A DNA stretch of 64,000 nucleotides from an uncultured Actinomycetes bacterium (GCA_964640385.1 CAZXFL010000003.1:100725-164724), one strand, 5' to 3'; shown: positions 3,181 through 41,090, numbered from the stretch's first letter. Notes: a model not told the origin generated them from the sequence alone. Translations and numbers: made by a program.

Positions 3181-3950
3181 GCTGGCGAGCGATGAGCGAT
3201 GAGGAACTGATGGGGGCACTGTCCTCGCTGGAGCCGGATGTGGCGGGGTCGGAGGTCGCCACCGCCGTTGCCCGCCGGATCGCCGGGGGACCCGGACGCG
3301 TGAGCCGGCGTGACGCCTTCGCCCTGTGGCCTCGCGGCCGTCGCCGGTTCGCGGTCGCCCTCGCCGTGTTCGTGCTCGCGACGACCGTGGCCGCGGGTTC
3401 GAAGGTCGTGATCGGAGCGATCCAGATCCAGCGCGCGCCCGAGGCGGCATATGCGCCGTCCACGGTACCGGAAACGGGGCCGAACCTCGGGCGTGCCGTT
3501 ACGCTCGTGGAGGCGGAGGCGCGCGTGAAGTTCCAGATCATGGTTCCCATGGCGCTTGGCGACCCGGACGCCGTGTTCCTCGACCATGCCGCTTCGCGGG
3601 TGTCGATGACGTGGCTGCCTCGTTCAGACCTCCCAAGGATCGCCGGGACCCCGTGGGGCGCGATCCTGATCGAGTTCGGCGGCGACGACATCCTCGCCGT
3701 TAAGCAGGTTCCCACCGAAGGTTCACCGGAGGCTATCGACATCGCGGGCACGCGCGGCTATTGGCTCGAGGGACCGCACACGCTGCAACTTGCCGACGGA
3801 ACCGCGCTGCGAGTCAGCGGAAACGTCGTGATCCTGGAGCGCGATGGCACGACCCTGCGACTAGAAACCGTCCTCGACCGAGCCGGTGCTATCCGTACAG
3901 CCGCATCCATGGAGCCGATCCCCTCGGAGAGCGGCGACGGGTATCCATAA
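3177..3950 (+). CDS. anti-sigma factor, single-pass membrane protein
   Basis: Its ATG overlaps the sigma gene's TGA stop (ATGA). A short cytoplasmic N-terminus, one TM helix (FAVALAVFVLATTVAAG), then an extracytoplasmic domain. This is the typical partner position for an ECF sigma factor. Confidence 0.6.
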   Translation: MSWRAMSDEELMGALSSLEPDVAGSEVATAVARRIAGGPGRVSRRDAFALWPRGRRRFAVALAVFVLATTVAAGSKVVIGAIQIQRAPEAAYAPSTVPETGPNLGRAVTLVEAEARVKFQIMVPMALGDPDAVFLDHAASRVSMTWLPRSDLPRIAGTPWGAILIEFGGDDILAVKQVPTEGSPEAIDIAGTRGYWLEGPHTLQLADGTALRVSGNVVILERDGTTLRLETVLDRAGAIRTAASMEPIPSESGDGYP

Positions 3951-4021
3951 GCCGGCATCTTCGGCGACCGGCCCGACAAGGGACGGAATGGGTGATCGCG
4001 GTGATATCGGATCGTGAGGGT

Positions 4022-5557
4022 CTACGGCGGCAGTTGGAACTGAGGGTCGGGGGGAGGCGGGCTGCAGAGTTGCGTCACGCGCGCTCGCATCGCGGTCAAC
4101 GTACTCGCATGATCCGGGTCCGACGCAAGGTTGTGCAATTCGTAGGGATCGTCCGAAAGATCGTAGAGTTCCTCGCCGCTCCTCCCGTACCACATGTACG
4201 CGAAGTCCTCGGATCGGATCCCGCACATCGTCGGGACGTGGTGGCGCCCCCGGCCGTCGTCCAGATGCTCCAGGAGGAAGTCGGTTCGCCAGCTGGATGG
4301 GCCTTGGCCATCGAGCAGCGGCAGGAGACTGCTCCCGTCCCAGGGACCCGGCGGGACGAGCCCCGCGGCATCCATGATCGTCGGCGCGACATCGATGTTG
4401 ACCACCAGGTCGTGTCGGTCCCCCGGCGTCTCGATCATCCGGTCGTACCTGATGTACATCGGCACATGGATGGCTTCCTCGTACGGAACGCCCTTCCAGA
4501 CCCAGCGGTGCTCCCCGAAGAGGAAGCCGTTGTCGGACATGTAGACGATCATCGTGTTGGCCAATGCCTTCTCGCGCCGGAGTGCGTCAAGGAGCTTGCC
4601 AACCGCCGTATCGAGGCCGATCAGCGCCCTCTTCTGCTCGCGGAAGCGCCGATCCATCCGTTCTCGGGCGTTCGCGCTCAAGCGCGGGATGTCGGCGGCG
4701 TGGGGCGGCTTGTCGGACATGTCCAGCTCGTTGAAATTCGGCGAGCGCTCGATCCGGATCGATCTCGATCGCCGCTTGTCACCGGGGGCGGGCACCACGG
4801 GTCCGTGGGGTGCGTTCGGCGCGAAGTAGAGGAAGAAGGGATCCCCACCGTGATCGACCTCGATGAACTTGACTGCCTGCCGGGTCAGCACGTTCGTCGA
4901 ATAGTCGCCGGGCTCATGCCCGAAGGACTCGATGGCCGGGGTCCCGGCGCCATCGGAGATGAGTTGGTCGAAGCCGTAGTACTTGGACGCGTCTTCGGCA
5001 AGCCCGTACCAGCGATCCCAGCCCGGCGGGACATACATCGTGGTGTGAGCGGGTTCCATGTAGCCGTTCAGGTATTTCCCGAACAGTGCCGTGTCATAGG
5101 TCGGTGTGAGCCAGGTCGCCAATGTCGAGGAGTCATCGAAGGAAGCGAACCCGCCGAAGGGACCAAGATTCTGATAGGTACCGTTGCCATGCGAATACAG
5201 GCCGGTCAGGATGCTCGCCCGGCTGGGGCAGCAAAGCGAGTTCGAGATGAACGCGTTCTCAAACCTGACCCCCTTGTCGCCGATGAGGTGGCGAACGTTC
5301 GGCATGACGTTCATAGTGTCGAAGCGTTGATCATCCGAGAGGATGAGCACGATGTTGGGCGATCCGCTCGGCAGGTGACGTCTCTGGGCCGCCGAGGGCG
5401 CCTCCGCCTGAGCCTGAACGAGGCCAGCGGTAAGGACGAGTAGGGCGGATGTAACCGCCGTGGAGACCCTAGCCGCGCTCAGGTCCGGGTCCGGGTCGGT
5501 GCCGCATGCACCGCGCAAGACTACAAGGGCGGTCAGGCGCGGCTCGGCTCGCACCAT
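4022..5557 (-). CDS. type I sulfatase (formylglycine-dependent arylsulfatase family)
   Basis: Canonical C-x-P-S-R sulfatase signature (SLCCPSRASILTGLY) and an N-terminal signal region. The exact start within the first ~40 codons is uncertain. Confidence 0.85.
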   Translation of the reverse strand: MVRAEPRLTALVVLRGACGTDPDPDLSAARVSTAVTSALLVLTAGLVQAQAEAPSAAQRRHLPSGSPNIVLILSDDQRFDTMNVMPNVRHLIGDKGVRFENAFISNSLCCPSRASILTGLYSHGNGTYQNLGPFGGFASFDDSSTLATWLTPTYDTALFGKYLNGYMEPAHTTMYVPPGWDRWYGLAEDASKYYGFDQLISDGAGTPAIESFGHEPGDYSTNVLTRQAVKFIEVDHGGDPFFLYFAPNAPHGPVVPAPGDKRRSRSIRIERSPNFNELDMSDKPPHAADIPRLSANARERMDRRFREQKRALIGLDTAVGKLLDALRREKALANTMIVYMSDNGFLFGEHRWVWKGVPYEEAIHVPMYIRYDRMIETPGDRHDLVVNIDVAPTIMDAAGLVPPGPWDGSSLLPLLDGQGPSSWRTDFLLEHLDDGRGRHHVPTMCGIRSEDFAYMWYGRSGEELYDLSDDPYELHNLASDPDHASTLTAMRARVTQLCSPPPPDPQFQLPP

Positions 5558-5747
5558 ATGGGGGAGTGGAGTCGAACGACGTCAGCTCCACGCAGATGCC
5601 CCGTAGGAGACGGCGGAGCATGAGTGCCCGCCCGACTGTGGCGTGGCCGGCGGACCACGCCTGGCGAAGCTCCTACTTCGGATCCCGCTGACCCCATCCG
5701 GACCTTTTTTCGTGAGGTAACGACCCCTTCGATCCGGACCTATTGAC

Positions 5748-6524
5748 ATGAGGCAACAGGCCTCGAGCGGGCCGGAGAGTGACAGAACCGCAGCTCAGAC
5801 GGTATGGCGATCGTCGGCATCATTGTGGTGGCGAGGCTGGCCCGCTATGGTCTGCGGCGTGAAGCGGACCCCCGCGACGGTGCTGGCAGCCTTGCTGATC
5901 CTCGCGATGGCGTCAGTTCGTGCGGTGTCGGCAGTTCCGACGGGAGCGTCCGATCCCGGACCCACCCTCGTCGGCGCGATCCAGGAGGACTCGAGGTTCA
6001 CGTCACCGTTCACGGGGTATGGCAGCGATGGTCAGGACTGCTACGCCGACCAGAAGGTCTGCCACGGGGGAGCCGGCAGGGTCCTGCAGATCGAGGGTCG
6101 CAGTGTGTGGCGTATCCCGCGAGCTGGCTTCGTCTCGCGGCACGGCTGGAGAGGCCCGTACCTCACCGTGTCCACACCGCCGGCTCCCGGGTCGCCGGCG
6201 AGCGAGCAGATGGCCTGCTGGGTGATGGCCGATCGCACCGACCCCGGGAAAGCTCGAGTCCACCTCGCCGTTCTGGCTCGTTCCGCAGTGGACGCGCCAC
6301 TGTCGACCCTTGCCCAGACCGTCATCCGCGTGGGCAGGAGCGAGCTCGCGCCCTCGTGCGTCCGCTTCCAGCTCACCGACCCATGGGTCGAGTTGAGTTT
6401 CGACGTGTTCGTGCGCAACAACGGTCCGGTGCTGGTCGACGAGGTGATGATCTATCAGGGCGGTCCGGAGCCCTCGCCGATCGACGAATTCGCCGCCCAC
6501 CCGTTCGATACCGGGACGTCCTAG
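5748..6524 (+). CDS. secreted hypothetical protein
   Basis: Long ORF with an internal signal-like segment (TPATVLAALLILAMASVRAVSA). No recognisable domain. The start may be further downstream. Confidence 0.4.
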   Translation: MRQQASSGPESDRTAAQTVWRSSASLWWRGWPAMVCGVKRTPATVLAALLILAMASVRAVSAVPTGASDPGPTLVGAIQEDSRFTSPFTGYGSDGQDCYADQKVCHGGAGRVLQIEGRSVWRIPRAGFVSRHGWRGPYLTVSTPPAPGSPASEQMACWVMADRTDPGKARVHLAVLARSAVDAPLSTLAQTVIRVGRSELAPSCVRFQLTDPWVELSFDVFVRNNGPVLVDEVMIYQGGPEPSPIDEFAAHPFDTGTS

Positions 6525-6673
6525 AGCGCCTGGCCGAAGCCTCGCTCGCATCGACCTCAGACGGCCGATGACCCCGGATCTGGAACGCGATTTGCAAGGT
6601 TAGCCCGCTGGGCATACGGTCGCGGCCGCGGTGGAGACCGCCGCCGCATGTGCGGGGAGAAGGAGGTTCGGAT

Positions 6674-6832
6674 ATGAGTGACGCCCAGGTGAAGAGCCAC
6701 GATTCGCCGGACGAGACGCGGACGTTCGACAACGGCCAAGTGGAGGTCGTGAAGCTTGCGAGCGGAACGGTCGGGCGCGCGACTTTCGAGCCGGGCTGGC
6801 GCTGGTCCGAGCACGTCAAGCCTGCAGCGGCA
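6674..6832 (+). pseudogene. truncated 5' duplicate of the cupin gene at 68-430
   Basis: About 155 bp of nucleotide homology to 74-230, plus about 70 bp of the upstream leader with the same RBS. The reading frame then diverges into unrelated sequence after ...HVKP. Confidence 0.5.
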
Positions 6833-7041
6833 GAGCAAGAGGGCAGGGAAGCAGGCAAAGGTGGCAACGACGCGCTACAAGATGGGGCAGATCTCCTACG
6901 CGGCTTACGGCAAGGTGTACGACAGGTCCGCGGAGGCCTACGACCGGTATTCGGAGGCCTACGATCTGGTCGTCAGGCTCGAGTTCCGCATGTCACAGGC
7001 CGAGGACCGTCTGCGGGGGGCCCTGTTCGGCGGCCGCAGCC

Positions 7042-7581
7042 CTAGGTCGGTGGGACGGCCGTGGGCACCTGGCCCGCTTTGTTAAAGGGCAGGTAGATCA
7101 CGTCGAGGGTGGTCGCTCCAAAGGTTGTCGACGCGAAATCAATGCCCAGCGCCCGGAGCTCGACTTTGTGCATGCCCTTCGCGACCGGCCAGGCGGCATT
7201 CGTGGAGCAGTCCTCCTGCGCATTTGTCGCCGCCGTCAGCTCGATTTGCCGGAGGGAGCTGGATAGGCTCACGTCGTTCAGGAAGATCATGCAGGAGACG
7301 CCCTCGTCGGCGACGAAGTTGCTTACGTCCGACGAGGCGACCATGAAGAGATAGCCGCGCTTCGGTGCGGCGATCGTCGTCGCGGCTGCGACACCGCTCG
7401 TTCCGCTGAGTGCAGTGCCGTCCGTGTGGTCTTCGGCGAGACGGACGAGTTGGTTCGCGTGGTAGCCGTCCACCTTGTGGGCGTTGGCGATGATCGCAAT
7501 CGCCGGTCCCCCGGAGGCGATTAGACCGGCGGCGAAGCCCGCGATGATGGAGCCGGAATGCTTCCTGAGCAGCCGCGTCAT
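7042..7581 (-). CDS. secreted hypothetical protein
   Basis: ORF of 179 aa with an N-terminal hydrophobic signal-like region (SGSIIAGFAAGLIASGGPAIAIIANA). Confidence 0.45.
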   Translation of the reverse strand: MTRLLRKHSGSIIAGFAAGLIASGGPAIAIIANAHKVDGYHANQLVRLAEDHTDGTALSGTSGVAAATTIAAPKRGYLFMVASSDVSNFVADEGVSCMIFLNDVSLSSSLRQIELTAATNAQEDCSTNAAWPVAKGMHKVELRALGIDFASTTFGATTLDVIYLPFNKAGQVPTAVPPT

Positions 7582-7756
7582 CTTAATCTCCTTTCAACGG
7601 TGGCTGTGCGAGTGTGTCACGCCCTGCTGGGAAAGCTCAACGTCGCGACCGGACCCCCATGAACCACTCAAGAGGGAGCGGTGGGCGGACGGCGCCCGTT
7701 TGGGGATTGAGAACCAGCTATGGCGCGTCACACAAGTGGTCTCCGAGACCGCTTCG

Positions 7757-7835
7757 GTGCCCCGGGAGGAATCGAGCCCCCGCCACCCGGTTAGGAAACC
7801 GTTGCTTCTATCGACTGAGCTGCGGGGCCCGGGCC
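7757..7835 (-). other. tRNA-like remnant (pseudo-tRNA)
   Basis: Minus-strand sequence has a GCTCAGTCGATAG D-arm-like segment, a GGGGGCTCGATTCCTCC T-arm-like segment and a 3' ...CGGGGCACC end. The anticodon region forms only a tetraloop hairpin (CGGTT-TCCT-AACCG), so no valid cloverleaf can be drawn. Confidence 0.3.
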
Positions 7836-8003
7836 GGGGGCCAGAGCAACTGGCGCTCTAACGGGGCTCGAGCTCAAGGGCCCTGTCGGCCCTCTACCCT
7901 ATCCTGTCGGCCCTCTGCCCTTTTAAGGAGCGCTTGGCGGGCCCAACCCCACCGGGGCTGCGCAGGGCCCGGAATGAAAAGATTCGCAGGTCAGAGCATA
8001 TTC

Positions 8004-8190
8004 GCGGAGGCGGACGGGATTCGAACCCGCCGGGGAGTTTTCGCCCCCACACCGGTTTTGAAGACTGGTGGGATCCGTCCATGGGGTCTGCGCTAGTCCA
8101 CGCGGGTCCACCCTCAGGCGCAAGTTGTCTACTCGGGTCCACCCTCGTCCGGGCGGGTCCGTGAACGGATGTCTGTAGGGCGTCAGTACG
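8004..8190 (-). repeat. partial copy A of the tRNA(UCA) 3' half, fused to a conserved ~120-bp arm repeat
   Basis: 8004-8064 matches the anticodon-loop-to-3'-end segment of the tRNA at 12005-12096 (TCTTCAAAACCGGTG...GGCGGGTTCGAATCCCGTCCGCCTCCGC). 8065-8190 matches 9651-9780 (GGATCCGTCCATGGGGTCT.CGC.AGTCCACGCGGGTCCAC...GTCAGTACGG). Confidence 0.6.
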
Positions 8191-8427
8191 GGGAGCAGGT
8201 CCAACCCGGGTGGCAAGTCATGATTCGGCGAGCGGACCGACTATTGGGGCCCTGTCGACCGAACCCACCGCTAGGATGCCGAGCATGGCCCGACGCCTCC
8301 TCGTGGCACCCGTCTGGATCGCTGCGTGCGTACTGGCGCTCACGGCTTGCACGGCACGAAGCAAGACCTTCGAACGTGACGGAGCCTCGTTCCAGTACCC
8401 GACTCCTGGAACGCGCAGGCCACGGTC

Positions 8428-8859
8428 GTGGGTGAGAACCCAACCGAGAGCTGTGGGAACGGTTTCTGGTCGGTCAGTTTCGAGACCGGGTCCGCTGCAC
8501 AGGCAGATGTCGTCCTATGTCCAGTCAGCGTCAATCCCGCCGATGAAGAACAGATCGAGAGTCTGATCACCGATGACTTCGATCGGCAGCACCCCAGCGG
8601 GATGGAGTGGACGCTCCGCGACCTCACGGATCGCGAGATGGGCGGGTTGAGAGGGATGTATGGGGAGGCGGAGGTGCTAGCAGGGCGGGGAGCCGAACTC
8701 GGCATCGAGGAAGGGACCCATCATGAGTACAGTGCGATCGCGACGAATAGCGGGAGTGTGGATTGGTACCGGATCGTTTGCACGTTCCCGAATCCCGATC
8801 CTGCCGATGTCGGCCAGGCGTGTCAGGACATGGCCGAGTCGTTCACGGCGGAGGCGTAG
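8428..8859 (+). CDS. hypothetical protein, possibly the frameshifted mature part of a lipoprotein
   Basis: ORF of 143 aa. A lipoprotein signal (MARRLLVAPVWIAACVLALTAC) is encoded in another frame at about 8279-8400 and runs into this ORF. This suggests a frameshift or a sequencing error. Confidence 0.35.
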   Translation: MGENPTESCGNGFWSVSFETGSAAQADVVLCPVSVNPADEEQIESLITDDFDRQHPSGMEWTLRDLTDREMGGLRGMYGEAEVLAGRGAELGIEEGTHHEYSAIATNSGSVDWYRIVCTFPNPDPADVGQACQDMAESFTAEA

Positions 8860-8867
8860 CCAGCTCG

Positions 8868-8935
8868 CTTGAAGTTGTCTACGCCAGTCCACCCTCGTCT
8901 ACGCGGGTCCATGAATGGATGTACTGAGGATCTAG
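8868..8935 (-). repeat. solo copy of the distal part of the arm repeat
   Basis: GTTGTCTACGCCAGTCCACCCTCGTCTACGCGGGTCCATGAATGGATGT matches 8128-8185 and 9708-9775. Confidence 0.5.
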
Positions 8936-8945
8936 CCGAGGTCCA

Positions 8946-9455
8946 TCATTTCGCCGTGACCGCCCAGGTGCCGTGCACGTTGAAGGAGAACGAGCTGCTG
9001 GTGATGTAAGGCGACGTACCCAAGACGAAGCCCCAAGGCGTGACGCCCGCCGACGCCTGGGTCCGAGGGTCAACGAAGACGACGCTTCCCTGAGACCACC
9101 CGCCACCGTAGTAGATGCAAAGGTGGCCGGGCTTGGCGGACGGCTTGCTGACCGTGCCCTGGCATGCCGCTGTCGTCTCACTGGGGCCGAGTACGTGGCC
9201 GACCGGAGTGAAGTTGAGTCGTTGAGGGAACGTCACGGCCTCCAACTGCATGTTCTGGGTCGCACCCGTTGCCTGCATCCCGCTCACGTTGAAGACGCCG
9301 CGCTCGGTCTTCCCGGACGGCAAGGCACCGGCGGCTCGCGGTGCCGGGCCTTCGGTGTCGCTCAGCGAGGTTCCCGCATAGGCGCCGCCGCCGAGGGCGA
9401 GCACAAGGGCCATGGTGGAGACGACGTTCGCGTAGGTGAGCCGGAAACGACGCAT
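8946..9455 (-). CDS. secreted hypothetical protein
   Basis: Signal peptide MRRFRLTYANVVSTMALVLALGGGAYA. Island cargo. Confidence 0.5.
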   Translation of the reverse strand: MRRFRLTYANVVSTMALVLALGGGAYAGTSLSDTEGPAPRAAGALPSGKTERGVFNVSGMQATGATQNMQLEAVTFPQRLNFTPVGHVLGPSETTAACQGTVSKPSAKPGHLCIYYGGGWSQGSVVFVDPRTQASAGVTPWGFVLGTSPYITSSSFSFNVHGTWAVTAK

Positions 9456-9574
9456 CGGAACCTCCCGGGTCGGATCGAGGCAATGCTATCACCGGCGGTC
9501 GGGGTGAACACCAGGCGTGGAGGCCCCCACTCCCGTGAACAGGTCGGCAAGGGTTACGCAGGTCTCCGCATGTG

Positions 9575-9780
9575 AGCGGAGGCGGACGGAGCGGAGGCGG
9601 ACGGGAATCGAACCCGCCGGGGAACTTGCGTCCCCCCACCGGTTTTGAAGCCGGGTGGGATCCGTCCATGGGGGTCTACGCCAGTCCACGCGGGTCCACT
9701 CTCAAGCGTGATGTTGTCTGCGCCAGTCCACCCTCGTCCACGCGGGTCCATGCACGGATGTCGGTACAGCGTCAGTACGG
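9575..9780 (-). repeat. partial copy B of the tRNA(UCA) 3' half, with a 15-bp tandem duplication, fused to the same arm repeat
   Basis: 9590-9650 matches the 3' half of the tRNA. AGCGGAGGCGGACGG is present twice in tandem (9575-9589 and 9590-9604). 9651-9780 matches 8065-8190. Confidence 0.6.
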
Positions 9781-9870
9781 AGACCTGAACGCCCTGACGG
9801 GATGGGCGTAGGTGACGCCCAGCCCGTTCGAATGAACCCAGTCGTCGGTGAGGATCGAGGCGGAGCTCGC

Positions 9871-12000
9871 CTAGCAGGCTCCCGCTGCGGCGCAGACCCC
9901 GATGTCTCCCAGCGTGCCGTTCGCCCCGCCGTCGCCGTCGAGCCCGTCGTCCTCGCCCGTCCCTTGGACGGCTGGGGCACTTGCGCCACCGGTCCCCCCG
10001 GTTCCGCCGCTCCCGCCGCTGATGGTGTTACCGGAGATCACGGGTGCGCTCGCCGCTCCGGACCGGTAGATCCCCCAACTGGAGCCGCCGGCGCCCCCGC
10101 CACCGCCCCCGCCATGACCACCGTGGGCTCCGGCGCCACCGGCGCCCGGGCTGGACGATCCGGGGTGCAGACCCGGAAGCCCGCCAGAGCCACCCGGCTG
10201 GCCGCGGCCGCCGCTTCCGCCGTTCCCACCGTTGCCACCATTCCCTCGCTGGATGTCGTTGCCGGAGATCGTCGGAGAGGAGTCGATGACATAGATGGCG
10301 AATGATCCGCCTCCAGCGCCGCCTCCGCCGCCGCCCCCGCGAGCGGCAAGTCCTCCAGCGCCGCCTCCACCGCCGCCGCCGCCCCAGGCGTCCGTCCCGC
10401 TATCGCACCCGCCGCCGCCTCCTCCTCCTCCTCCTCCGCTCCCGTTCTGACCTGTGCCGCCGCCGCTGGCTGCCGATCCGAACCACAATTCCCCAGACAA
10501 GAAGCCTCCTGAGCCGCCCCCGGCCCCGGCTGATCCATTGACGACCATGCCGGGAGAACCAGTGCCTCCGGCCGTGCCGCCGCCGGCGTCGCAACCGGCT
10601 GAGTTCGCCGGGCCGCCGGTCCCCTGAGCGCCCGCGCCGCCCGACGTGAAGTCGGCGGACGACCCGACGTCGCCGGAGGTGGCGGTCAGATCGAAGGGGC
10701 AGCTGTTGTCCATCTCCCCGCCGGCGCCGCCGGCGCCGCCGTCCATGTCGCGCGAACTCGGTGAGGTGCCCGAATTCGTCCCGCGTGATCCCCCGGCACC
10801 GTGGCTCGTGTCATCGCAGGCCAGCTGCTCGGCACCGGATCCCCCTTGATCACCGGAGGGCGCCGCAGTGAGCGTCGTCGCATCCCAACCGTTCCCACCG
10901 TCTGCTCCGTCCGCGCCGTCGCCCGCGATGATGGTGTTCCCCGAGATCGTGAGGACACCCGCCGGCACGTCCTCGACGAGGATCGTGTACGACGCCTTCA
11001 TCGATCCGCCGACACCCGTGGTGGAATTCGCCCCCTGCAGTGTGAGATCGGCCAGGATCGTCGGCTGGGTCAGCCCCTCGGCTGCGACGGTGACGGTCAT
11101 GGTCCGGTCCGGAGTCGCTGTCGTTACGACGGCGCCGTCGATGCCCTGCACGGTGGCCTCGTGACCGGGCGACTGAGGCGACGCGCGTAGGTACGATTGG
11201 TCGTAGCCGCCATAGACGCTCACGCCGTTGGCCATCTGGAAGAACCCGCTCGGGTAACTACCGGCCGCGACGTAGACGTCCCGATGCCCATTTGCAGCCG
11301 CGGTATCGATGCCCTGCTGGACGGTGGCACACGGGGAAGCCATCGTGCAGGCAAATCCCGAACCGGTTGTGGCAACGAAAGCCGCCTCGGCGACCTCGCC
11401 GTCGATCCCGTCGCAGTTGACGTCAACGAAGATCGTGTCCGGAAGGTCCGCGAGGCCTGGATGCACGCTGGGGTCGGCCGGTGCGCAGTCGCCGGTGGCC
11501 GGAGAGTATCCATCGCCGTCCGCATCCAGGGTCTTGGTCGGCACCGTCTTGCTCCGGGCCTGATTCCCGGAGCGATCGGTGACGGGCTTGGAGCGCGTGC
11601 GCTTGTAGGTGAGCCCGGGTGCGGCGGCCAAATCGGGCGAGCCACTCTCGGTCAATACGATCGTGATCGTCTTCCCCTGCGCGGCGCCGGCGCTCGCAAC
11701 CGAGTATCCCGCGACCTTGAAGGGGTACTTCCCGTCGGCATCGGCTTGGTGTCGAACCTTCTCGTTGTACGTGATGAGGATGCGGTCGACCTGGCCATCC
11801 GCGTCCAGATCCAGCATGGCAGCGCTGACGATCTTCGGCGGCTTCCGATCCGCGGCTCGTGCGTGCGGTGGGGGCAGGATAGCGGCAAGGACGAGTACTG
11901 GAACGATGATGGCTCGTGGGGTTCGGCGCACCGCGGAGATCCTCCCTCTCCGGAAGTATGAGCCGACCCTGTGTGGCTGTCGAGTCGCGTCTACGACTCC
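9871..12000 (-). CDS. large secreted glycine-rich parallel beta-helix repeat protein with MopE-like metal-binding motifs
   Basis: Signal region (RTPRAIIVPVLVLAAILPPPHARA). DADGDGYSPATGDCAPADP...DVNCDGIDGE is a putative MopE-type metal-binding motif. Repeated ISGNTI/ISGNDI beta-helix caps and long Gly-rich tracts. The ORF track extends it artificially through the tRNA. Confidence 0.6.
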   Translation of the reverse strand, partial: GVVDATRQPHRVGSYFRRGRISAVRRTPRAIIVPVLVLAAILPPPHARAADRKPPKIVSAAMLDLDADGQVDRILITYNEKVRHQADADGKYPFKVAGYSVASAGAAQGKTITIVLTESGSPDLAAAPGLTYKRTRSKPVTDRSGNQARSKTVPTKTLDADGDGYSPATGDCAPADPSVHPGLADLPDTIFVDVNCDGIDGEVAEAAFVATTGSGFACTMASPCATVQQGIDTAAANGHRDVYVAAGSYPSGFFQMANGVSVYGGYDQSYLRASPQSPGHEATVQGIDGAVVTTATPDRTMTVTVAAEGLTQPTILADLTLQGANSTTGVGGSMKASYTILVEDVPAGVLTISGNTIIAGDGADGADGGNGWDATTLTAAPSGDQGGSGAEQLACDDTSHGAGGSRGTNSGTSPSSRDMDGGAGGAGGEMDNSCPFDLTATSGDVGSSADFTSGGAGAQGTGGPANSAGCDAGGGTAGGTGSPGMVVNGSAGAGGGSGGFLSGELWFGSAASGGGTGQNGSGGGGGGGGGGCDSGTDAWGGGGGGGGAGGLAARGGGGGGGAGGGSFAIYVIDSSPTISGNDIQRGNGGNGGNGGSGGRGQPGGSGGLPGLHPGSSSPGAGGAGAHGGHGGGGGGGAGGSSWGIYRSGAASAPVISGNTISGGSGGTGGTGGASAPAVQGTGEDDGLDGDGGANGTLGDIGVCAAAGAC

Positions 12001-12004
12001 TTCG

Positions 12005-12096
12005 AGCATATGAGCGGAGGCGGACGGGAATCGAACCCGCCGGAGAACTTGCGTCCCCCCACCGGTTTTGAAGACCGGGGGGCCCACCAGGAACCC
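12005..12096 (-). tRNA. selC: class-II tRNA with anticodon UCA (tRNA-Sec/selC candidate, or a Ser-type opal suppressor)
   Basis: Minus-strand fold: acceptor GGAGGCG/CGCCTCC with discriminator G; 3-bp D-stem with a GG-containing 11-nt D-loop; anticodon stem CCGGT/ACCGG with loop CUUCAAA (the same loop as E. coli selC); a ~20-nt variable arm forming a 6-bp hairpin with a GCAA loop; T-arm GGCGGG-TTCGATT-CCCGTC. The acceptor plus T-stem total 13 bp, as in tRNA-Sec. Confidence 0.5.
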
Positions 12097-12244
12097 TGAC
12101 GCCTCCGTGGGGCAGCCTATCCGTCCGGCGCCGTCGGCACGGTCGGGTCGCGACCGATCTCGCAGGCCGGGTTAGGCTACGTCGATGGAACCGGGTCCCG
12201 TGCGGGCCTCGATCTCGACTTCCTGATCTGAAGGAGCTGGCGAA

Positions 12245-12757
12245 ATGAGCAGCACGACCGCGCGACTACGAACCCGGCTGGCGCTCGTCGCCCTCTCGAC
12301 GGCGTTCGTCATCTTGACCACCGCGCTCCCCGCTTCGGCGTGCTGCTCGGGTCCGGATCCGGATGACACGTCTGGCAGGCTCGACATGTCCGCGGCGAGC
12401 GGCTTCAAGGATGCCCCAGGTGCACCACTCGACCTCAGCATCGAAACGTTCGGGCGATGGGGTGACCGCGTACTGGCGCGCAGTGGTCCTGGTCGGGTGT
12501 TCGTGTACTTCGACACGACGGGCGACTTGGTCTCCGACTATGTCGGCAAGGTCAAGCTTGCGCACGGTCGGCTCGTGATGGTCATCACCGGTCCCGGTTT
12601 CAGGAGCCAGCCGCTCGAGGTGCGGCGTCCGAACCGCAGCAAAGCCAAGGTGACGGTCGCCTTCTATTTCCGGACCGAATTCACGGCGGTCGGTGCCTGT
12701 TCGGGTGGCTGCGCAGACGAAACCCCGGATGTCCCCGGCTGGTTCGGGCCGATCTAG
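12245..12757 (+). CDS. secreted hypothetical protein
   Basis: Signal peptide (LALVALSTAFVILTTALPASA). No known domain. Confidence 0.5.
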   Translation: MSSTTARLRTRLALVALSTAFVILTTALPASACCSGPDPDDTSGRLDMSAASGFKDAPGAPLDLSIETFGRWGDRVLARSGPGRVFVYFDTTGDLVSDYVGKVKLAHGRLVMVITGPGFRSQPLEVRRPNRSKAKVTVAFYFRTEFTAVGACSGGCADETPDVPGWFGPI

Positions 12758-12903
12758 CCCCGGGGTCTGACTAGTCCGTCCGGGCCATCTCTGGTGGTTC
12801 GGCCCCAGAGGGCTAAACCTTTCCGGCGTTCCTGCCGAGGGAAAAACTGGGGACAGCTAACGCAACGCGCCGACCTACGCATGCCCTTTCTTCATCGGCT
12901 TCA

Positions 12904-13302
12904 TTGATAAGGAAAGGAGAGGGCATGGGTGCCGCGCCGTTCGTACAGTCGTTCGCGCGGAACTTGGAGCAGGGTGAAGGGGTGCAGGCGTTCGTGGACG
13001 CCATCGTTCGGTACGGCGATGGGCTGCGGACGGGGAAAGTCGTCCTGACGGATCGGCGGTTGCTGCTGATTCTGCCGGACGACGAAGGTGGAGAACCGGA
13101 CATCCGTGCGTTCAAGCGCACGGAGTGCACGGTCGTCAGTACCCAGGAGCGTGATGACGGCGGTGTCCTCGTCGTTCTGAAGCTGCGGGATCGCGTACTG
13201 GGATTGTGCTTCATGGATTGGTGGCGTCAGGAAGGCGAGCAGCTGATCGCCTCCCTAAGCCCCGAACAGGAAGGAGGGCGATCGCACCGCCGGGTGAGCT
13301 GA
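12904..13302 (+). CDS. hypothetical protein (possible bacterial PH-like domain)
   Basis: ORF of 132 aa. The KVVLTDRRLLLI...ECTVV pattern is reminiscent of bPH domains. Confidence 0.35.
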   Translation: MIRKGEGMGAAPFVQSFARNLEQGEGVQAFVDAIVRYGDGLRTGKVVLTDRRLLLILPDDEGGEPDIRAFKRTECTVVSTQERDDGGVLVVLKLRDRVLGLCFMDWWRQEGEQLIASLSPEQEGGRSHRRVS

Positions 13303-13320
13303 GCGTTCTACGATGAACGC

Positions 13321-14133
13321 ATGCAGGCGGCCTTCTTCGACCTCGACAAGACCGTCATCTCCCGGTCGAGCTCGTTCAGCCTCGCGCGGCCGATGTACCG
13401 CGCGGGCATGGTTTCGCGCCGGACCGTCCTTCAGAGTGCGTACGCGCAACTGGTTTTCGTGCTGCTCGGAGCCGACGAACGCCGGCTGGACCGCGCCAAG
13501 GGGGCGATGCTCAAGCTGACCAAGGGCTGGGAGCGCGCCCGACTCGAGGCGCTGGTCCGCGAGGTGATGGAAGAGGTCATCGACCCGTTCGTCTACCAGG
13601 AGGCGCTCGAGCTGATGGAGGAGCATCGCGCCGCCGGCCGGGAGGTCTGGATCGTCTCGACCTCCCCTGAGGAGATCGTCCGCCCATTGGCCGAGCACTT
13701 CGGCGCGACCGGCGTCATCGCTACGCGCGCCGCCGTCACTTCCGAAGGCCGTTACACCGGCGAGCTGGAGTTCTACTGTTTCCGCGAGGCCAAAGCCGAG
13801 GCGATGCGCGAGCTGGCCGAACGCCGGGGCATCGACCTCGCGTCGTCGTTCGCCTACTCGGACTCGATGACCGACCTGCCGATGCTCGAGTCGGTGGGCG
13901 AGCCCCACGCGGTCAATCCCGACCGCGAACTGCGCCGCGAGGCCGAGCAGCGCGAGTGGCCCGTGCTCTCGTTCCGACGTCCGGTGCGATTGATGAGGCG
14001 TCGCGTGCCGGCGTCCGATGGCGGCAGCGGTTTCGTCGTGGTGTGGGCTGTTGCCGCCGCCGCGGTCGCCGTCGGATTGCTGGTGTGGATCTGGATGCGG
14101 GGCCGCAGATCGCAACGCCGGTCCCGAAGGTGA
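13321..14133 (+). CDS. HAD-superfamily hydrolase, subfamily IB
   Basis: HAD motif I (FFDLDKTVI) and motif IV (YSDSMTDLPML). A C-terminal membrane anchor follows (GFVVVWAVAAAAVAVGLLVWIW). Confidence 0.8.
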   Translation: MQAAFFDLDKTVISRSSSFSLARPMYRAGMVSRRTVLQSAYAQLVFVLLGADERRLDRAKGAMLKLTKGWERARLEALVREVMEEVIDPFVYQEALELMEEHRAAGREVWIVSTSPEEIVRPLAEHFGATGVIATRAAVTSEGRYTGELEFYCFREAKAEAMRELAERRGIDLASSFAYSDSMTDLPMLESVGEPHAVNPDRELRREAEQREWPVLSFRRPVRLMRRRVPASDGGSGFVVVWAVAAAAVAVGLLVWIWMRGRRSQRRSRR

Positions 14134-14349
14134 GGGGCCGAACGGCCGATTTCCCTCCCGGGGGGTCCGGGTGTAGGGTCGGGAAGTAGGGAGCAGTACC
14201 CACGCGCGGACTGCCGCGGGAGGCATGCTCGGGTGCGGCTGACATAGTCGGCCGGCAGCCGAGCAAGTGCAAGAGCGCTTGTTAGCTGCTCCCTTTCTCT
14301 TTGCCCGGCTCGGGCGGATCGCGTCGCGAACTCAGACAGGACCGCGTTG

Positions 14350-14637
14350 TTAGCTGCTGCGTGCCGATGCGTGGGCCAGGCGCGCAGCCAGGCGTTCGGC
14401 CCGCTCCGCCGCCTCGTCGATGCTGCCTTCCGACACGGTCCGGCGGATCGTTCCGAGTTCGGTCTCGACTACCGTGCCGAGGCGTCCCTTGCGCGTGTGC
14501 GGGTCGCGGATGAATTCCTCGAGCTCGGCGACCGCGTGGTCGAGCCGGGCCATCGAGTCGTTCGCCCGGAACTGGGTGGCCGCGGCGGCCCTGCGCCGTG
14601 CCTCCCGCCGCTCTGCCAGGTCGATCACGTTGCTCAT
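14350..14637 (-). CDS. small hypothetical protein (95 aa)
   Basis: ORF starting MSNVIDLAERREARRR. Charged helical protein. Divergent from the ferritin-like gene. Confidence 0.35.
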   Translation of the reverse strand: MSNVIDLAERREARRRAAAATQFRANDSMARLDHAVAELEEFIRDPHTRKGRLGTVVETELGTIRRTVSEGSIDEAAERAERLAARLAHASARSS

Positions 14638-14716
14638 GGTTCGATGGTAGGACTCGCCTCTGACATTTCCGGTATCTGCGCCGGGAATCACCCGGGCACC
14701 CGCCTAGAATCCCCTC

Positions 14717-15373
14717 ATGGGGGACACGCAAGCCGTCGCGCTCCTATTGGCCGCACTCACCTGTGGGGAGCGGTTCGCCGCCCGCCGGGCGCGCGAGAAC
14801 GTCACCCTCGCGCCCGACGAGCGCACGAGCAAGGAACAGGTGCATATCGCCGAACACGAGGAGCGCAGCTACGAGCTGGTCTCGGCACGCCTCGCCGAGG
14901 TTGGCGATCCGGGACTGACGGAGCGCTTCCAGCCCTACTTCCAGTCGTTCCACGACCGCTGCGCTCCCTCGGACTGGGTGGAGGCGCAGGCGTTCCACTA
15001 CATCGGGGACGCACTGGTTTCCGAGTTCGGCGATGCGCTGGCCGGCAGGCTCGATCCGGTCTCGGCCGAAGTCGTAACCAAGTCCCTCGGCGGCCGGGAG
15101 GCGCAGGAATCGTTCTCGCTGGACGAGTTGCAGCGGGCGATCGACCAGGACCCCGAGACCCGCTCGAGGATCGCCGACTACGCCCGCCGCATCTCGGGCG
15201 AGGCGCTGACCCAGACGTCCCGGGCGCTGGAGGCCGCGGCCGCGCTGCGCGATCTGCTGGGCGGCGTGCAGGGCGAGAAGGCCATCCTGCTGGACCTGCT
15301 TGAGGCCCACCGGGTGCGACTGGACCGGCTGGGCATCGACATGGTCGAGATGGACGACGACGACGGCATCTGA
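14717..15373 (+). CDS. ferritin-like domain protein
   Basis: Four-helix-bundle-type composition with E..H..E-type segments (HIAEHEERSYE; EAQAFHYIGDALVSEF). The assignment is tentative. Confidence 0.45.
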   Translation: MGDTQAVALLLAALTCGERFAARRARENVTLAPDERTSKEQVHIAEHEERSYELVSARLAEVGDPGLTERFQPYFQSFHDRCAPSDWVEAQAFHYIGDALVSEFGDALAGRLDPVSAEVVTKSLGGREAQESFSLDELQRAIDQDPETRSRIADYARRISGEALTQTSRALEAAAALRDLLGGVQGEKAILLDLLEAHRVRLDRLGIDMVEMDDDDGI

Positions 15374-15445
15374 CCTCCGGTCTCGGCCAACGGTCCTACC
15401 TGACTTGCAGTAGACGGCCTCGGCGGGGCACGATACCCCTCCAGT

Positions 15446-16573
15446 GTGCCCGCGTCAGGGGACCCCGTTGGGGGGTCGAATGTGAGTCAGACGTCTCAGG
15501 AGACCGTGGAAGATCTCGAGCGCTTCAAGCACGCCTTCGCCAGCGCCCCTATCGGCATGGCGTTGGTGGGCAGCGACTTCCGGTTCCTGGAGGTCAACGA
15601 CGCTCTCTGCGCCATGGTCGGCTACCCGCGTGAGGAGCTGACGGGCCTCACCTTCGTCGACATCACGCACCCGGATGACGCCGAGATCGGCGCGCACCTG
15701 GCCAAGCAGCTGTTCGAGGGGGAGCTACCGCACTACCGGATCGAGAAGCGCTACCTGGCCAAGTCGGGCGACGTGATCTGGGTCGACCTCAGCGCCACCC
15801 TGATCCCCGCCGGGGACGGCACGCCCTATGGCCTCGGGATCATCGAGAACATCACCGACCGCAAGACGGGCGAGATCCAGCTGCGGGAGCTGGAGGCCGA
15901 GCAGCGCAAGCTGCTCGACGCCACCATGGGCGCGGTCGAGGACGAGCGCAGCCACCTCGCCGGGGAACTCAGCGACGGGACGATCCCGCGCCTGACTGCG
16001 TTCGCGCAGAAGGTCGAGACCGTGCGGGCGACCCTGGCATCGTTGGCCGGTTCCATGGAGTCCGAGGCGTCCCTGCACGAGGTCCAGCAGGGCTTGACCG
16101 AAGAGGCGAGTTACCTGTACACGCTGGCCGGACGCCTGCGGCCGGTGATGCTGGCCCGTCAGGGGTTGGAGCCGGCGATCCAGGGACTGGCCGAGTGGCT
16201 CAAGTGGGCTCTGTCGATGCCGTGCACGATCAGCGTGGTCCTCGACGGCCGGCTCCCGCCCGAGGTCGAGATCAACGTCTACCGGATCGCGCAGGAAGCC
16301 GTGACCAACATCATCCGGCATTCGCGTGCCACGCTGACGTCGATCTCGGTCTGGAAGCAAGGCGATCAGATCCTGATGCACATCCGCGACAACGGCGTCG
16401 GGTTCGATGCGACCTCGCCGACCCGGGCCGAGAGCATGGGCATCGGCCTGATGCGCCGGCGCGCGCAAGCGCTCGGCGGGACGTTCAGCGTCGAGTCGGT
16501 GGTCGGCGGCGGCACGTCGGTCCGCGCGTCGATCCCCGCACCCGCACCCCCGCCGGCAGCCGAGGGCGAGTAG
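15446..16573 (+). CDS. PAS-domain sensor histidine kinase (HisKA_3/NarL-family type), cytoplasmic
   Basis: PAS (FKHAFASAPIGMALVGSDFRFLEVNDALCAMVGYPREEL). HATPase_c (IAQEAVTNIIRHS...IRDNGVGFD...GIGLMRRRAQALGGTFSV). No adjacent cognate response regulator; it sits directly upstream of the tad locus. Confidence 0.8.
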   Translation: MPASGDPVGGSNVSQTSQETVEDLERFKHAFASAPIGMALVGSDFRFLEVNDALCAMVGYPREELTGLTFVDITHPDDAEIGAHLAKQLFEGELPHYRIEKRYLAKSGDVIWVDLSATLIPAGDGTPYGLGIIENITDRKTGEIQLRELEAEQRKLLDATMGAVEDERSHLAGELSDGTIPRLTAFAQKVETVRATLASLAGSMESEASLHEVQQGLTEEASYLYTLAGRLRPVMLARQGLEPAIQGLAEWLKWALSMPCTISVVLDGRLPPEVEINVYRIAQEAVTNIIRHSRATLTSISVWKQGDQILMHIRDNGVGFDATSPTRAESMGIGLMRRRAQALGGTFSVESVVGGGTSVRASIPAPAPPPAAEGE

Positions 16574-16770
16574 CCCGGGGGAGCACGGCATCCCCCGGAT
16601 GGGGTGCCGACGTGCCCGATGCATCCCGCGCGCGAATCGGTCGCTTTGGCGATTCACGGGTGCATCCCATCCGCGTAGGCTTGTCCATGTTCCGCAGGAC
16701 GGCCGACGCCCTCGGATGAGCCCCCTCTCCTCCCTATCGCAGTGCAAGTAGTTCCGGGCTTCCCGTCTGG

Positions 16771-20781: not shown

Positions 20782-20795
20782 GAAGGAGGTATCCG

Positions 20796-39729: not shown

Positions 39730-39800
39730 CGATGCGAGCCTAGCGCCGGTGTCATCTTTGCGCGACCCGGGCGCTGCGTGAGGGGACGCGAGAGGAGGGG

Positions 39801-41036: not shown

Positions 41037-41090
41037 GCGGCTCCCGAGGCCCGGTCGGCGCGTTCGCGCGGCGTGTAGCATCTGCCACCG

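What the first reader, a model, noticed from the sequence alone, without database searches (positions are those of the whole stretch)
8004..12096. selC-like tRNA(UCA) followed by two tandem partial 3'-half copies: serial island integration at a tRNA-Sec-type gene
The minus-strand sequence at about 12005-12096 folds as a class-II tRNA.
- Acceptor GGAGGCG/CGCCTCC with discriminator G73, the Ser/Sec identity element.
- A 3-bp D-stem with a GG-containing long D-loop.
- Anticodon stem CCGGT/ACCGG with loop CUUCAAA, giving anticodon UCA. This is the same loop as E. coli selC.
- A ~20-nt variable arm that forms a 6-bp hairpin with a GCAA tetraloop.
- T-arm GGCGGG-TTCGATT-CCCGTC. Acceptor plus T-stem total 13 bp, as in tRNA-Sec.

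The segment running from the anticodon stem to the 3' end (about 60 nt) recurs twice in direct orientation on the same strand, at 9590-9650 and 8004-8064. Each copy is fused to foreign 5' sequence. This is the attL/attR pattern left by tyrosine-integrase elements that cross over in the anticodon loop. selC is a classical island hot-spot in enterobacteria.

The roughly 4 kb between the copies carries only secreted or hypothetical cargo and has no integrase. This suggests two decayed elements integrated in tandem.

A UCA tRNA would also mean that the organism uses selenocysteine or an opal-suppressor system.
Basis: partly seen in the sequence, partly recalled or inferred. Interest (0 to 1): 0.8.

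Follow-up and report, generated by a model that had tools for sequence, protein, structure and literature searches.

The report
Decayed island array at tRNA-Sec gene
A genuine selenocysteine tRNA gene in an uncultivated actinobacterium is followed by two leftover copies of its 3' half, the scars of repeated insertions by related mobile elements that have since lost their integrase; this is a well-known kind of genome scar, documented here unusually cleanly.

Summary
ARAGORN and Rfam both call a tRNA-Sec (UCA) at 12014-12106 (-). Two 60-nt copies of its 3' half, running from the anticodon loop to the 3' end, lie at 9591-9652 and 8004-8065.

The serial-integration interpretation is supported.
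- Both partial copies are preceded by homologous ~125-nt arms. Each arm carries eight RGAC sites in 10-bp phase, the pattern expected of integrase arm-type sites.
- The working tRNA is a chimera. Its 5' half is identical to that of the closest relatives, and its 3' half carries a foreign variable arm. The distal copy keeps the relatives' native 3' half.
- Relatives have selC beside the same HAD gene but different DNA downstream of it.

No recombinase, intact or decayed, is detectable in the array or among about 50 scanned ORFs elsewhere in the window. A lone truncated arm at 8867-8944 suggests at least three integration events plus a deletion. The cargo is secreted or lipoprotein-like proteins of unknown function.

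The closest known category is tandem integrase-less att-flanked elements (CIMEs, accretion). This is a new member of a known kind, of low to moderate interest. Selenocysteine use could not be tested: no selA, selB or selD lies in the window.

The parts
12014..12106 (-). tRNA-Sec (anticodon UCA), intact and functional-looking. It serves as attL of the array.
   Evidence: ARAGORN. Rfam RF01852 78.8 bits, full-length. Cloverleaf with 7+6 bp acceptor/T stems, 6-bp D-stem and long variable arm.
12074..12106 (-). Native 5' half of the tRNA (positions 1-33).
   Evidence: 33/33 identical to the tRNA-Sec of relatives L125 and L124.
12014..12073 (-). Element-borne 3' half of the tRNA (anticodon loop to 3' end), brought in by the most recent integration.
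   Evidence: 54/60 to the relatives' 3' half, with all differences in the variable arm. 59/60 to copy 2. Nearest neighbours are a different Acidimicrobiia-type variable arm.
9871..11931 (-). Cargo of module A: a 686-aa secreted, Gly-rich protein with a signal peptide, GTG start and GGAGAGGGAGG ribosome-binding site.
   Evidence: ORF and translation. Only a sub-threshold MopE motif in Pfam. No homologue in the relatives' loci.
9653..9783 (-). P arm of module A: eight RGAC (mostly TGGAC) sites spaced 10-10-10-22-10-10-10 bp.
   Evidence: (D3/D4). 0/20000 shuffles reach either the site count or the number of 10-11-bp spacings. Not more structured than shuffles as a single strand.
9591..9652 (-). 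Partial tRNA-Sec copy 2: the 3' half carried by the earlier element and displaced by integration of module A.
9576..9605 (-). 15-nt tandem duplication (CCGTCCGCCTCCGCT x2) at the 3' end of copy 2.
   Evidence: Read directly. Origin not explained.
8946..9455 (-). Cargo of module B1: a 169-aa secreted protein of unknown function.
   Evidence: Homologues at 56-71% identity sit in unrelated chromosomal contexts without arm or tRNA fragment.
8867..8944 (-). Lone distal arm unit (three to four RGAC sites) with no proximal unit and no tRNA fragment. It is the remnant of a further att site truncated by deletion.
   Evidence: (D3).
8285..8859 (+). Cargo of module B2: lipoprotein-like ORF(s). A lipobox signal peptide sits in one frame (8285-8566) and a 143-aa ORF in another (8428-8859), so this may be a frameshifted gene.
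   Evidence: The GC3 signal is too weak to decide. The 99.86%-identical JGI contig L122 has no difference in this stretch and gives the same 143-aa gene call.
8066..8194 (-). P arm of module B: the same eight-site RGAC array (10-10-10-21-10-10-9).
   Evidence: RGAC cores show 0/31 substitutions against arm 2, versus 20/72 elsewhere (Fisher p=6e-4).
8004..8065 (-). Partial tRNA-Sec copy 3: the displaced original (native) 3' half. It is the distal attR and the end of the array.
   Evidence: 57/60 to the relatives' tRNA 3' half, which is the closest of the three copies. Nearest neighbours are L125-127 and L129. No further copies in the window.

Best explanation
The locus is the scar of repeated site-specific integration of related integrative elements into the selC (tRNA-Sec) gene of an uncultivated actinobacterium.

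Mechanism:
- Each element carried an attP made of an arm with eight phased RGAC binding sites, followed by a copy of the tRNA-Sec 3' half.
- A tyrosine-type integrase exchanged strands at or just after the anticodon loop.
- Each insertion therefore rebuilt a working tRNA from the native 5' half plus the element's 3' half. It pushed the previous 3' half downstream, where it now sits behind the element's arm.

Reading outward from the tRNA:
- Module A (12013-9591) is the youngest.
- Module B (9590-8004) is older and is itself a fusion of two remnants, because it holds a lone truncated arm at 8867-8944.
- Copy 3 is the original chromosomal 3' half.

All integrase, excisionase and transfer functions have been lost. 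What remains is cargo (secreted or lipoprotein-like proteins) bracketed by att sites, which is a CIME-like tandem.

Shown here: the tRNA, the repeats, the arm architecture, the chimeric tRNA, the absence of any recombinase, and the non-conservation of the downstream region in relatives.

Inferred: the type of recombinase (by analogy), the order of events, and the idea that an integrase gene was once present in cis.
For: - tRNA-Sec confirmed.
- Three copies of the 3' core against 0 expected by chance. Identity begins at the anticodon loop.
- Chimera test: 5' half 33/33 identical to relatives. Present 3' half 54/60, copy 2 55/60 and copy 3 57/60 to the relatives' 3' half. Nearest-neighbour sets separate cleanly. 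Both variable-arm versions fold as hairpins.
- Arms are homologous at 85.5% over 193 nt including the core. Each has eight RGAC sites in 10-bp phase, 0/20000 shuffles. Site cores show 0/31 changes against 20/72 elsewhere, p=6e-4. The same arm fused to a partial tRNA-Sec occurs in an unrelated JGI contig, L129.
- TGGAC clusters occur nowhere else in the 64 kb.
- Precedent at the same site: orphan copies starting at tRNA position 31-34 in L030, L072 and L078, each with its own reiterated arm motif. An intact PF00589 integrase abuts selC in L113. It is frameshifted in L061, truncated in L118, and reduced to 32-43-aa stubs in L055 and L030.
- Relatives at 86-89% HAD identity are syntenic on the tRNA's upstream side but carry different genes downstream. 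One has a lone distal arm unit 2.9 kb from selC. Cargo proteins are absent from those loci.
- The arrangement is reproduced in an independent assembly.
Against: - No integrase or remnant of one is detectable in the array in any frame at E<=1, nor by tblastn with the selC-associated integrase. That an integrase was ever encoded in cis is therefore inference.
- No relative with a clean empty site was found, and the sequence beyond copy 3 is also not syntenic with relatives. The outer boundary of foreign DNA is therefore not proven.
- GC content of the array is not anomalous.
- The 'native' assignment of copy 3 rests on two close relatives plus L129. A more distant relative, L132, is uninformative.
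- The two lone distal arm units (window and L125) end at the same column, which simple random deletion does not predict.
Confidence: 0.85

Rival explanations
1. The modules are not dead scars but non-autonomous cargo modules still moved in trans. An integrase encoded elsewhere in the genome, or on a visiting element, recognises the conserved RGAC arms and shuffles, excises or adds modules at selC. This would be a satellite- or cassette-like system.
For: Arm sites look constrained: 0/31 substitutions in RGAC cores against 20/72 in the rest, p=6e-4. There is a nearly invariant 27-nt block across five copies from three genomes. Other selC-flanked modules in other genomes also lack intact integrases. 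Integrase-less att-flanked elements mobilised by neighbours are documented (PMC5704250, PMC3146451).
Against: No integrase was found among about 50 scanned ORFs in the 64 kb. The array is identical in arrangement in two assemblies, with no variant junctions seen. Homologues of the p169 and p179 proteins never travel with an arm or tRNA fragment. One arm is truncated and one cargo gene may be frameshifted, which looks like decay. Arm conservation may simply reflect recent common ancestry.
Confidence: 0.2
2. The partial tRNA copies arose by local segmental duplication, slippage or unequal crossing-over of the tRNA region, without any mobile element.
For: A small 15-nt tandem duplication does exist at the end of copy 2, so local duplication processes act here.
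Against: The DNA between the copies is unrelated from module to module. The 5' flanks of the copies are homologous to each other but not to the tRNA's 5' half. The variable-arm pattern is chimeric with respect to relatives. The same arm plus partial tRNA occurs in another lineage.
Confidence: 0.03
3. The repeat array is an assembly or binning artefact of a metagenome-assembled genome.
For: Short-read Logan contigs break exactly at the repeats. L001 starts at 12014 and L121 ends inside copy 2.
Against: A JGI contig from a different dataset spans the whole array (window 3065-17580) at 99.86% identity with the same order. Logan contig L123 spans copy 3.
Confidence: 0.02
4. The UCA tRNA is an orphan or suppressor and not part of a working selenocysteine system. 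The trait is lost and the gene is kept only as an integration target.
For: No selA, selB or selD lies in the 64 kb. In 32-50 of about 118 other Actinomycetota loci these genes sit within the same 8-kb block as selC.
Against: The tRNA scores far above the Rfam threshold. Its 5' half is 100% conserved among relatives, and each integration restored a correctly folding variable arm. Unlinked sel genes are common. The rest of the genome was not available.
Confidence: 0.1

Closest known systems
CIMEs (cis-mobilizable elements) and tandem accretion at tRNA or other att sites. Examples: ICESt1-related elements of Streptococcus thermophilus and tandem IME/CIME arrays (PMC5704250).
   Same: The elements have lost integration and transfer genes but keep attL and attR. 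They sit in tandem, separated by copies of the 3' end of the target gene. They arise by integration, decay, then a further integration at the same site.
   Different: No functional partner element (ICE or IME) is present in the window. Descent from a conjugative element is not shown, since no rep, tra or int remnants remain. The modules are very small (1.6 and 2.4 kb). The host is an uncultivated actinobacterium and the target is selC.
Dehalococcoides ssrA genomic islands (PMC3146451).
   Same: Multiple tandem islands lie downstream of a single-copy small-RNA gene, each bounded by a direct repeat of its 3' end. A conserved motif lies just upstream of each repeat. Fifteen of those islands lack the integration module and were interpreted as possible CIMEs. 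The region is hypervariable between strains.
   Different: There the integrase is a CcrB-like serine recombinase and the repeat is 20 bp at the T-loop of tmRNA. Here the repeat is 60 nt starting at the anticodon loop, and the arms carry reiterated sites typical of tyrosine integrases with an arm-binding domain.
tRNA-flanked islands of Prochlorococcus built by tycheposons (bioRxiv 10.1101/2020.12.28.424599).
   Same: Successive integrations at one tRNA push older elements further into the island. Partial tRNAs and degenerate elements accumulate.
   Different: No tycheposon-type integrase or replication module is present here. The phylum is different, and the array is much smaller.
selC-associated islands of Enterobacteria (LEE, SHI-2 and others) with P4-like integrases (for example PMC6174562 and PMC7545054, listed).
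   Same: The same target gene (tRNA-Sec), and a direct repeat of its 3' end at the far island boundary.
   Different: The enterobacterial islands are tens of kb, usually retain an integrase next to selC, and have much shorter repeats (my own knowledge). There is no sequence relationship to them here.
The selC-targeting tyrosine integrase family found here (L113, L061, L118, L030, L055).
   Same: The same target and the same crossover region. Arm-type direct repeats lie on both sides. Decay runs from an intact integrase to a stub.
   Different: That family uses a different arm motif (GGTGTCCGTCAG). The window has no tblastn trace of this integrase.

Membership tests
Bacterial tRNA-Sec (Rfam RF01852) | Score above the curated gathering threshold, with the full-length model matched. 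| tested here: met
   78.8 bits against a threshold of 47, model positions 1-91. ARAGORN also calls tRNA-SeC.
Bacterial tRNA-Sec (Rfam RF01852) | Anticodon UCA in a 7-nt loop, and G73 discriminator. | tested here: met
   Loop CUUCAAA. A G follows CGCCUCC.
Bacterial tRNA-Sec (Rfam RF01852) | 13 bp in acceptor plus T stems, a 6-bp D-stem with a 4-nt loop, and a long variable arm. | tested here: met
   RNAfold gives a 7-bp acceptor plus 6-bp T stem (or 8/5 with a U.C mismatch), a D-stem of 3+3 bp around one U.C mismatch with loop UGGU, and a 7-bp variable hairpin with a GCAA loop.
Bacterial tRNA-Sec (Rfam RF01852) | Cognate machinery (selA, selB, selD) and selenoprotein genes in the genome. | not testable with these tools
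   None in the 64-kb window by tblastn at E<=0.01 or by Pfam. The rest of the genome is not available.
tRNA-targeting tyrosine-integrase integrative element / genomic island | Direct repeats of the tRNA 3' portion bounding the inserted DNA. | tested here: met
tRNA-targeting tyrosine-integrase integrative element / genomic island | Reconstituted tRNA made of a host 5' part and an element-derived 3' part. | tested here: met
tRNA-targeting tyrosine-integrase integrative element / genomic island | Arm-type reiterated binding sites next to the core. | tested here: met
   Eight phased RGAC sites per arm, conserved in three arms. Protein binding itself was not tested.
tRNA-targeting tyrosine-integrase integrative element / genomic island | An integrase gene inside the element. 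| tested here: not met
   No PF00589 or any other recombinase in any frame of 7582-12013 at E<=1. No tblastn hit to the selC-linked integrase. The modules are therefore remnants, not autonomous elements.
tRNA-targeting tyrosine-integrase integrative element / genomic island | Inserted DNA absent from the same site in relatives. | tested here: inconclusive
   Cargo is absent from relative L125, which has other genes after selC. No clean empty site was found, and the far flank is also non-syntenic.
CIME (cis-mobilizable element) | Retains attL and attR but lacks integration and transfer genes. | tested here: met
CIME (cis-mobilizable element) | Derived from an ICE or IME, and mobilisable by accretion with a functional element. 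| not testable with these tools
   No functional partner in the window and no remnants of conjugation or replication genes. This would need the whole genome and excision assays.
Integron cassette array | An IntI-type integrase with attI next to the array, and attC sites that fold as single-stranded hairpins. | tested here: not met
   No integrase. The arms fold no better than shuffles, z from -0.87 to +1.95.

The most novel reading that the evidence does not exclude
The RGAC arms are maintained by selection. On this reading, selC in this actinobacterial lineage anchors a small array of integrase-less single-gene cargo modules that a trans-acting, still unidentified recombinase adds, removes and shuffles. 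The roughly 75-nt distal arm unit would act as a discrete secondary recombination site, which would explain why lone units in two genomes end at the same position. This would be a tRNA-anchored gene-cassette system analogous in logic to integrons, but built on double-stranded arm-type sites.
Probability: 0.1. Interest if true: 0.6.

Novelty: new member of a known kind. Interest (0 to 1): 0.3.

Why it matters
The locus is a clean, internally controlled example of how serial integration at a tRNA gene works. The functional tRNA is demonstrably a hybrid of host and element halves, and the host's original 3' half survives as the outermost repeat.

It also shows that selC is a recurrent integration hot-spot across Actinomycetota. 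At least three arm-motif lineages of 60-nt att remnants were seen here, plus a shorter 30-nt class, and integrases next to selC appear at every stage of decay.

The downstream side of selC marks a synteny break between close relatives in this uncultivated clade. For annotation, it is a warning that partial tRNA-Sec hits and contig breaks at selC in MAGs reflect real repeats. It does not reveal a new mechanism.

Tried and rejected
- Searching for intact relatives of the element with the arm-core junction pattern returned 0 hits in viral contigs and 0 in metagenome contigs. A degenerate distal-arm pattern returned one JGI contig, L129, and no viral contig.
- Phage and plasmid collections: there was no match to the arm. 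The plasmid hits were complete selC genes inside fdh-selD-selC-selA-selB clusters, not attP sites.
- Empty-site search through homologues of the first gene beyond the array (p179): the homologues sit in unrelated contexts, such as next to glnA or between map and infA. One is near HAD and selC, but on the other side of them.
- Cassette-mobility test through homologues of the cargo protein p169: the homologues are in ordinary chromosomal contexts with no arm or tRNA fragment.
- attC-like folding of the arms: rejected.
- Compositional anomaly: none that is convincing. GC3 could not settle whether the lipoprotein gene is frameshifted.
- A DnaA-box or iteron reading of the GTCCAC repeats was considered and dropped. 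The sites occur only fused to tRNA-Sec fragments, and sister elements have different reiterated motifs in the same position.
- My first tblastn with the large cargo protein used an out-of-frame query. It was repeated correctly, still with no hits in relatives.
- A first nearest-neighbour run excluded variable arms of the window's own length because of a regex bound. It was corrected.

Full report

Yes. ARAGORN finds two tRNAs in the window. One is tRNA-SeC (anticodon tca) at 12014-12106 on the minus strand. Rfam's tRNA-Sec model matches 12016-12106 end to end at 78.8 bits, against a gathering score of 47 (E=1.5e-14).

The fold has these features:
- a 7-bp acceptor stem and a 6-bp T stem, 13 bp in total;
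- a 6-bp D-stem with one U.C mismatch and a 4-nt loop;
- the CUUCAAA anticodon loop;
- a 7-bp variable hairpin capped by GCAA;
- G73 as discriminator.

The rest of its anatomy was right.

A 28-nt probe from the T-arm and acceptor hits exactly three sites, at 12014, 9591 and 8004, all on the minus strand. No hits were expected in 100 shuffles.

Alignment shows that identity starts at the first base of the anticodon loop and runs 60 nt to the tRNA's 3' end. It then continues patchily for another 8-25 nt. Sensitive blastn finds no further copies in the window.

An independently assembled JGI contig (L122) reproduces window 3065-17580 at 99.86% identity with the same order. Short-read Logan contigs break at the repeats, as expected. 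The feature is therefore real and not an assembly artefact.

**2. What lies next to the copies?**

In tRNA orientation, copies 2 and 3 are each preceded by about 125 nt of homologous sequence, which I call the arms. Arm plus core is 85.5% identical over 193 nt. The true tRNA lacks this sequence.

Each arm holds exactly eight RGAC sites, mostly TGGAC, spaced 10-10-10-~22-10-10-10 bp. None of 20,000 shuffles reaches either the site count or the number of 10-11-bp spacings. Clusters of TGGAC occur nowhere else in the 64 kb.

Between the two arms, the RGAC cores show 0 substitutions in 31 positions, against 20 in 72 positions elsewhere (Fisher p=6e-4). As single strands the arms fold no better than shuffled sequence (z from -0.87 to +1.95). 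They therefore look like double-stranded arrays of protein-binding sites on one face of the helix, which is what integrase or excisionase arm-type sites look like. They do not look like integron attC hairpins.

A third copy, holding only the distal half of the arm, lies at 8867-8944 with no tRNA fragment.

**3. What lies between the copies?**

- **Module A** (12013-9591) holds one gene, 9871-11931 (-). It encodes a 686-aa secreted Gly-rich protein whose only Pfam signal is a sub-threshold MopE motif.
- **Module B** (9590-8004) holds a 169-aa secreted protein gene (8946-9455, -), the lone distal arm unit, and an oppositely oriented lipoprotein-like ORF pair (8285-8859, +). That pair may be a frameshifted gene, but GC3 could not decide.

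No recombinase of any Pfam family is detectable in any of the six frames of 7582-12013, even at E<=1.

About 50 ORFs across the whole window contain no integrase. The window is core chromosome: rpsF-ssb-rpsR, dnaB with an intein, dnaK-grpE-dnaJ-clpB, purA, purD and a Tad pilus cluster. GC content in the array is unremarkable.

**4. Evidence from other genomes**

*The core is widespread.* The 28-nt core is shared by tRNA-Sec genes across Actinomycetota. Of the matches in 119 fetched loci, 111 fall inside complete tRNA-SeC genes.

*Orphan partial copies occur elsewhere.* Copies beginning at tRNA positions 31-34 occur in L030, L072 and L078. Each is preceded by its own reiterated arm motif: ACAAGTCTT in L072 and L078, GGTGTCCGTCAG in L030. 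The DNA bracketed there encodes an ABC transporter, histidine kinases and a binding protein, with no intact integrase.

*An integrase family uses this site.* In L113 an intact tyrosine integrase (PF00589 plus PF14659) ends 50 nt from the selC 3' end. The same gene is frameshifted in L061, reduced to residues 229-381 in L118, and reduced to 32-43-residue stubs in L055 and L030. Its arm-type repeats overlap the integrase 3' end and recur at the distal repeat of L030.

So selC is a recurrent target of tyrosine integrases in this phylum, and integrase decay down to nothing is directly observable. The window shows no trace of this particular integrase, and its arm motif is different. It therefore belongs to a sister lineage whose integrase I could not find.

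*The same arm occurs in another lineage.* The eight-site RGAC arm fused to a partial tRNA-Sec appears in an unrelated JGI contig, L129.

**5. The decisive test: is the tRNA a chimera?**

Homologues of the neighbouring HAD hydrolase identified two close relatives. L124 has 89% protein identity and L125-L127 have 86%.

Both relatives are syntenic with the window on the tRNA's upstream side, at 81-89% nucleotide identity from 12037 to about 23500. L125 has tRNA-Sec in the same place and orientation. L124's contig begins inside the tRNA, which suggests a repeat-induced assembly break there too.

The comparison of tRNA halves:

| Segment | Match to relatives |
|---|---|
| Window tRNA 5' half (33 nt) | 33/33, identical to both relatives |
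| Window tRNA present 3' half | 54/60 |
| Copy 2 | 55/60 |
| Copy 3 (distal) | 57/60, sharing the relatives' GUGUGGGGGCGAAA variable arm |

- All differences in the present 3' half lie in the variable arm.
- Nearest-neighbour searches put copy 3 with the clade's own tRNAs (L125-127, L129).
- The present 3' half and copy 2 group with another Acidimicrobiia-type arm.
- Both versions fold into stable variable hairpins.

This is what integrase-mediated insertion at the anticodon loop predicts: native 5' half, element-borne 3' half, and the displaced native 3' half at the far end of the array. A more distant relative, L132, also keeps selC beside the HAD gene. It has a third variable-arm type and is uninformative.

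**6. Is the intervening DNA an insertion?**

Partly shown. L125 carries different genes after selC (DsrE, a TusA-like protein, HD-GerE). A lone distal arm unit follows, 2.9 kb from the tRNA. None of the window's cargo proteins has a homologue in the relatives' loci.

However, the sequence beyond copy 3 is not syntenic either, and I found no clean empty site. The downstream side of selC is best described as a hypervariable region in this clade.

**7. Mechanism**

This combines what is shown with what is inferred. Related elements integrated at least twice, and probably three times given the truncated arm. Each carried attP in the form 'RGAC arm - tRNA-Sec 3' half - P' arm'. Strand exchange took place between tRNA position 34 and about position 47.

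Later deletions removed the integrase and any excision or transfer genes, and fused two remnants into module B. The result is a tandem of att-flanked, integrase-less cargo modules.

This matches the published concept of CIMEs and accretion (PMC5704250). It also matches the tandem ssrA islands of Dehalococcoides, 15 of which lack an integration module (PMC3146451), and the partial-tRNA-littered islands of Prochlorococcus.

Whether the modules can still be moved in trans is open. The conserved site cores argue for it. The truncated arm, the fixed arrangement in two assemblies, the lack of any integrase in 64 kb, and the fact that cargo homologues never travel with arms argue against it.

**8. 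Selenocysteine use**

No selA, selB or selD lies in the window (tblastn with genuine plasmid-borne proteins at E<=0.01). In 32-50 of the other Actinomycetota loci these genes share the 8-kb block with selC.

In the window's clade selC is unlinked from them, so the trait cannot be confirmed from the available sequence. The tRNA's high score and its repeated faithful reconstitution suggest that it is in use.

**9. Unexplained points**

- The two lone distal arm units, in the window and in L125, end at the same alignment column, each abutting the 3' end of a convergent gene.
- Copy 2 carries a 15-nt tandem duplication of the acceptor 3' strand.
- Similarity among the three copies extends a few bases beyond the tRNA in a mosaic pattern.

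**10. Verdict**

This is a new member of a known kind: a decayed, CIME-like tandem at selC in an uncultivated actinobacterium. It is a neat textbook-quality example but not a new mechanism. Interest 0.3.

Noticed in passing
window 35902-38580 (+): The replicative helicase DnaB carries an intein with a LAGLIDADG homing-endonuclease domain (Pfam DnaB, DnaB_C, Intein_splicing, LAGLIDADG_3).
   Followed up: no
window 8867-8944 and L125:6023-6096: Stand-alone copies of the ~75-nt distal arm unit in two genomes diverge from full arms at the same column. Each abuts the stop codon of a convergent gene. This may mean the unit is a discrete module and not a random deletion product.
   Followed up: partly
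window 7882-7917 (-): A direct repeat, AGAGGGCCGACAGG x2 spaced 21 nt, lies in the intergenic region between copy 3 and the 179-aa gene. It occurs nowhere else in the window. It may be a regulatory site.
   Followed up: no
window 9576-9605 (-): A 15-nt tandem duplication (CCGTCCGCCTCCGCT x2) of the acceptor 3' strand at the end of partial copy 2.
   Followed up: no
L113:2234-3400, L061, L118, L030, L055: A tyrosine integrase family abuts selC in other Actinomycetota and shows a complete decay series: intact, frameshifted, C-terminal fragment, 32-43-aa stub. Its GGTGTCCGTCAG arm repeats overlap the 3' end of the integrase gene.
   Followed up: partly
L052:7547-7576 and L087:4272-4300: A different class of selC scar: 30-nt copies of only the T-arm-to-3'-end segment, lying about 90-120 nt downstream of the full tRNA-Sec. 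This suggests elements that cross over in the T-loop.
   Followed up: no
window 12757-12767, compared with L124:757-1152 and L125:9063-9425: Both close relatives have a TfoX_N-domain gene between selC (or the 170-aa gene) and the 125-aa gene. The window lacks it. The 170-aa secreted protein gene is present in the window and L124 but not in L125.
   Followed up: no
L136 (Arthrobacter plasmid pYA7-1a) and L137 (Streptomyces anthocyanicus plasmid): Complete selenocysteine trait clusters are carried on actinobacterial plasmids. L136 has fdh-selD-selC-selA-selB beside a Tn3 transposase. L137 has selB-selA-selD-selC. The trait itself is therefore mobile in this phylum.
   Followed up: no
L135:2163-2681, compared with window 39799-41651: In another lineage the homologue of the 169-aa cargo protein sits near tRNA-Gly(ccc), trpD and dcd. 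That cluster is at about 39.8-41.7 kb in the window, without the gene. The cargo gene therefore occupies different loci in different lineages.
   Followed up: no
JGI 3300041967 contig (no DNA held): A homologue of the 179-aa secreted protein is inserted between map and infA in the otherwise conserved adk-map-infA-rpmJ-rpsM ribosomal cluster.
   Followed up: no
window 16771-21700 (+): A Tad/Flp-type pilus cluster (CpaE-like ATPase, TadA, two TadB/C-like T2SSF proteins, DUF4244) is conserved with relatives L124 and L125.
   Followed up: no
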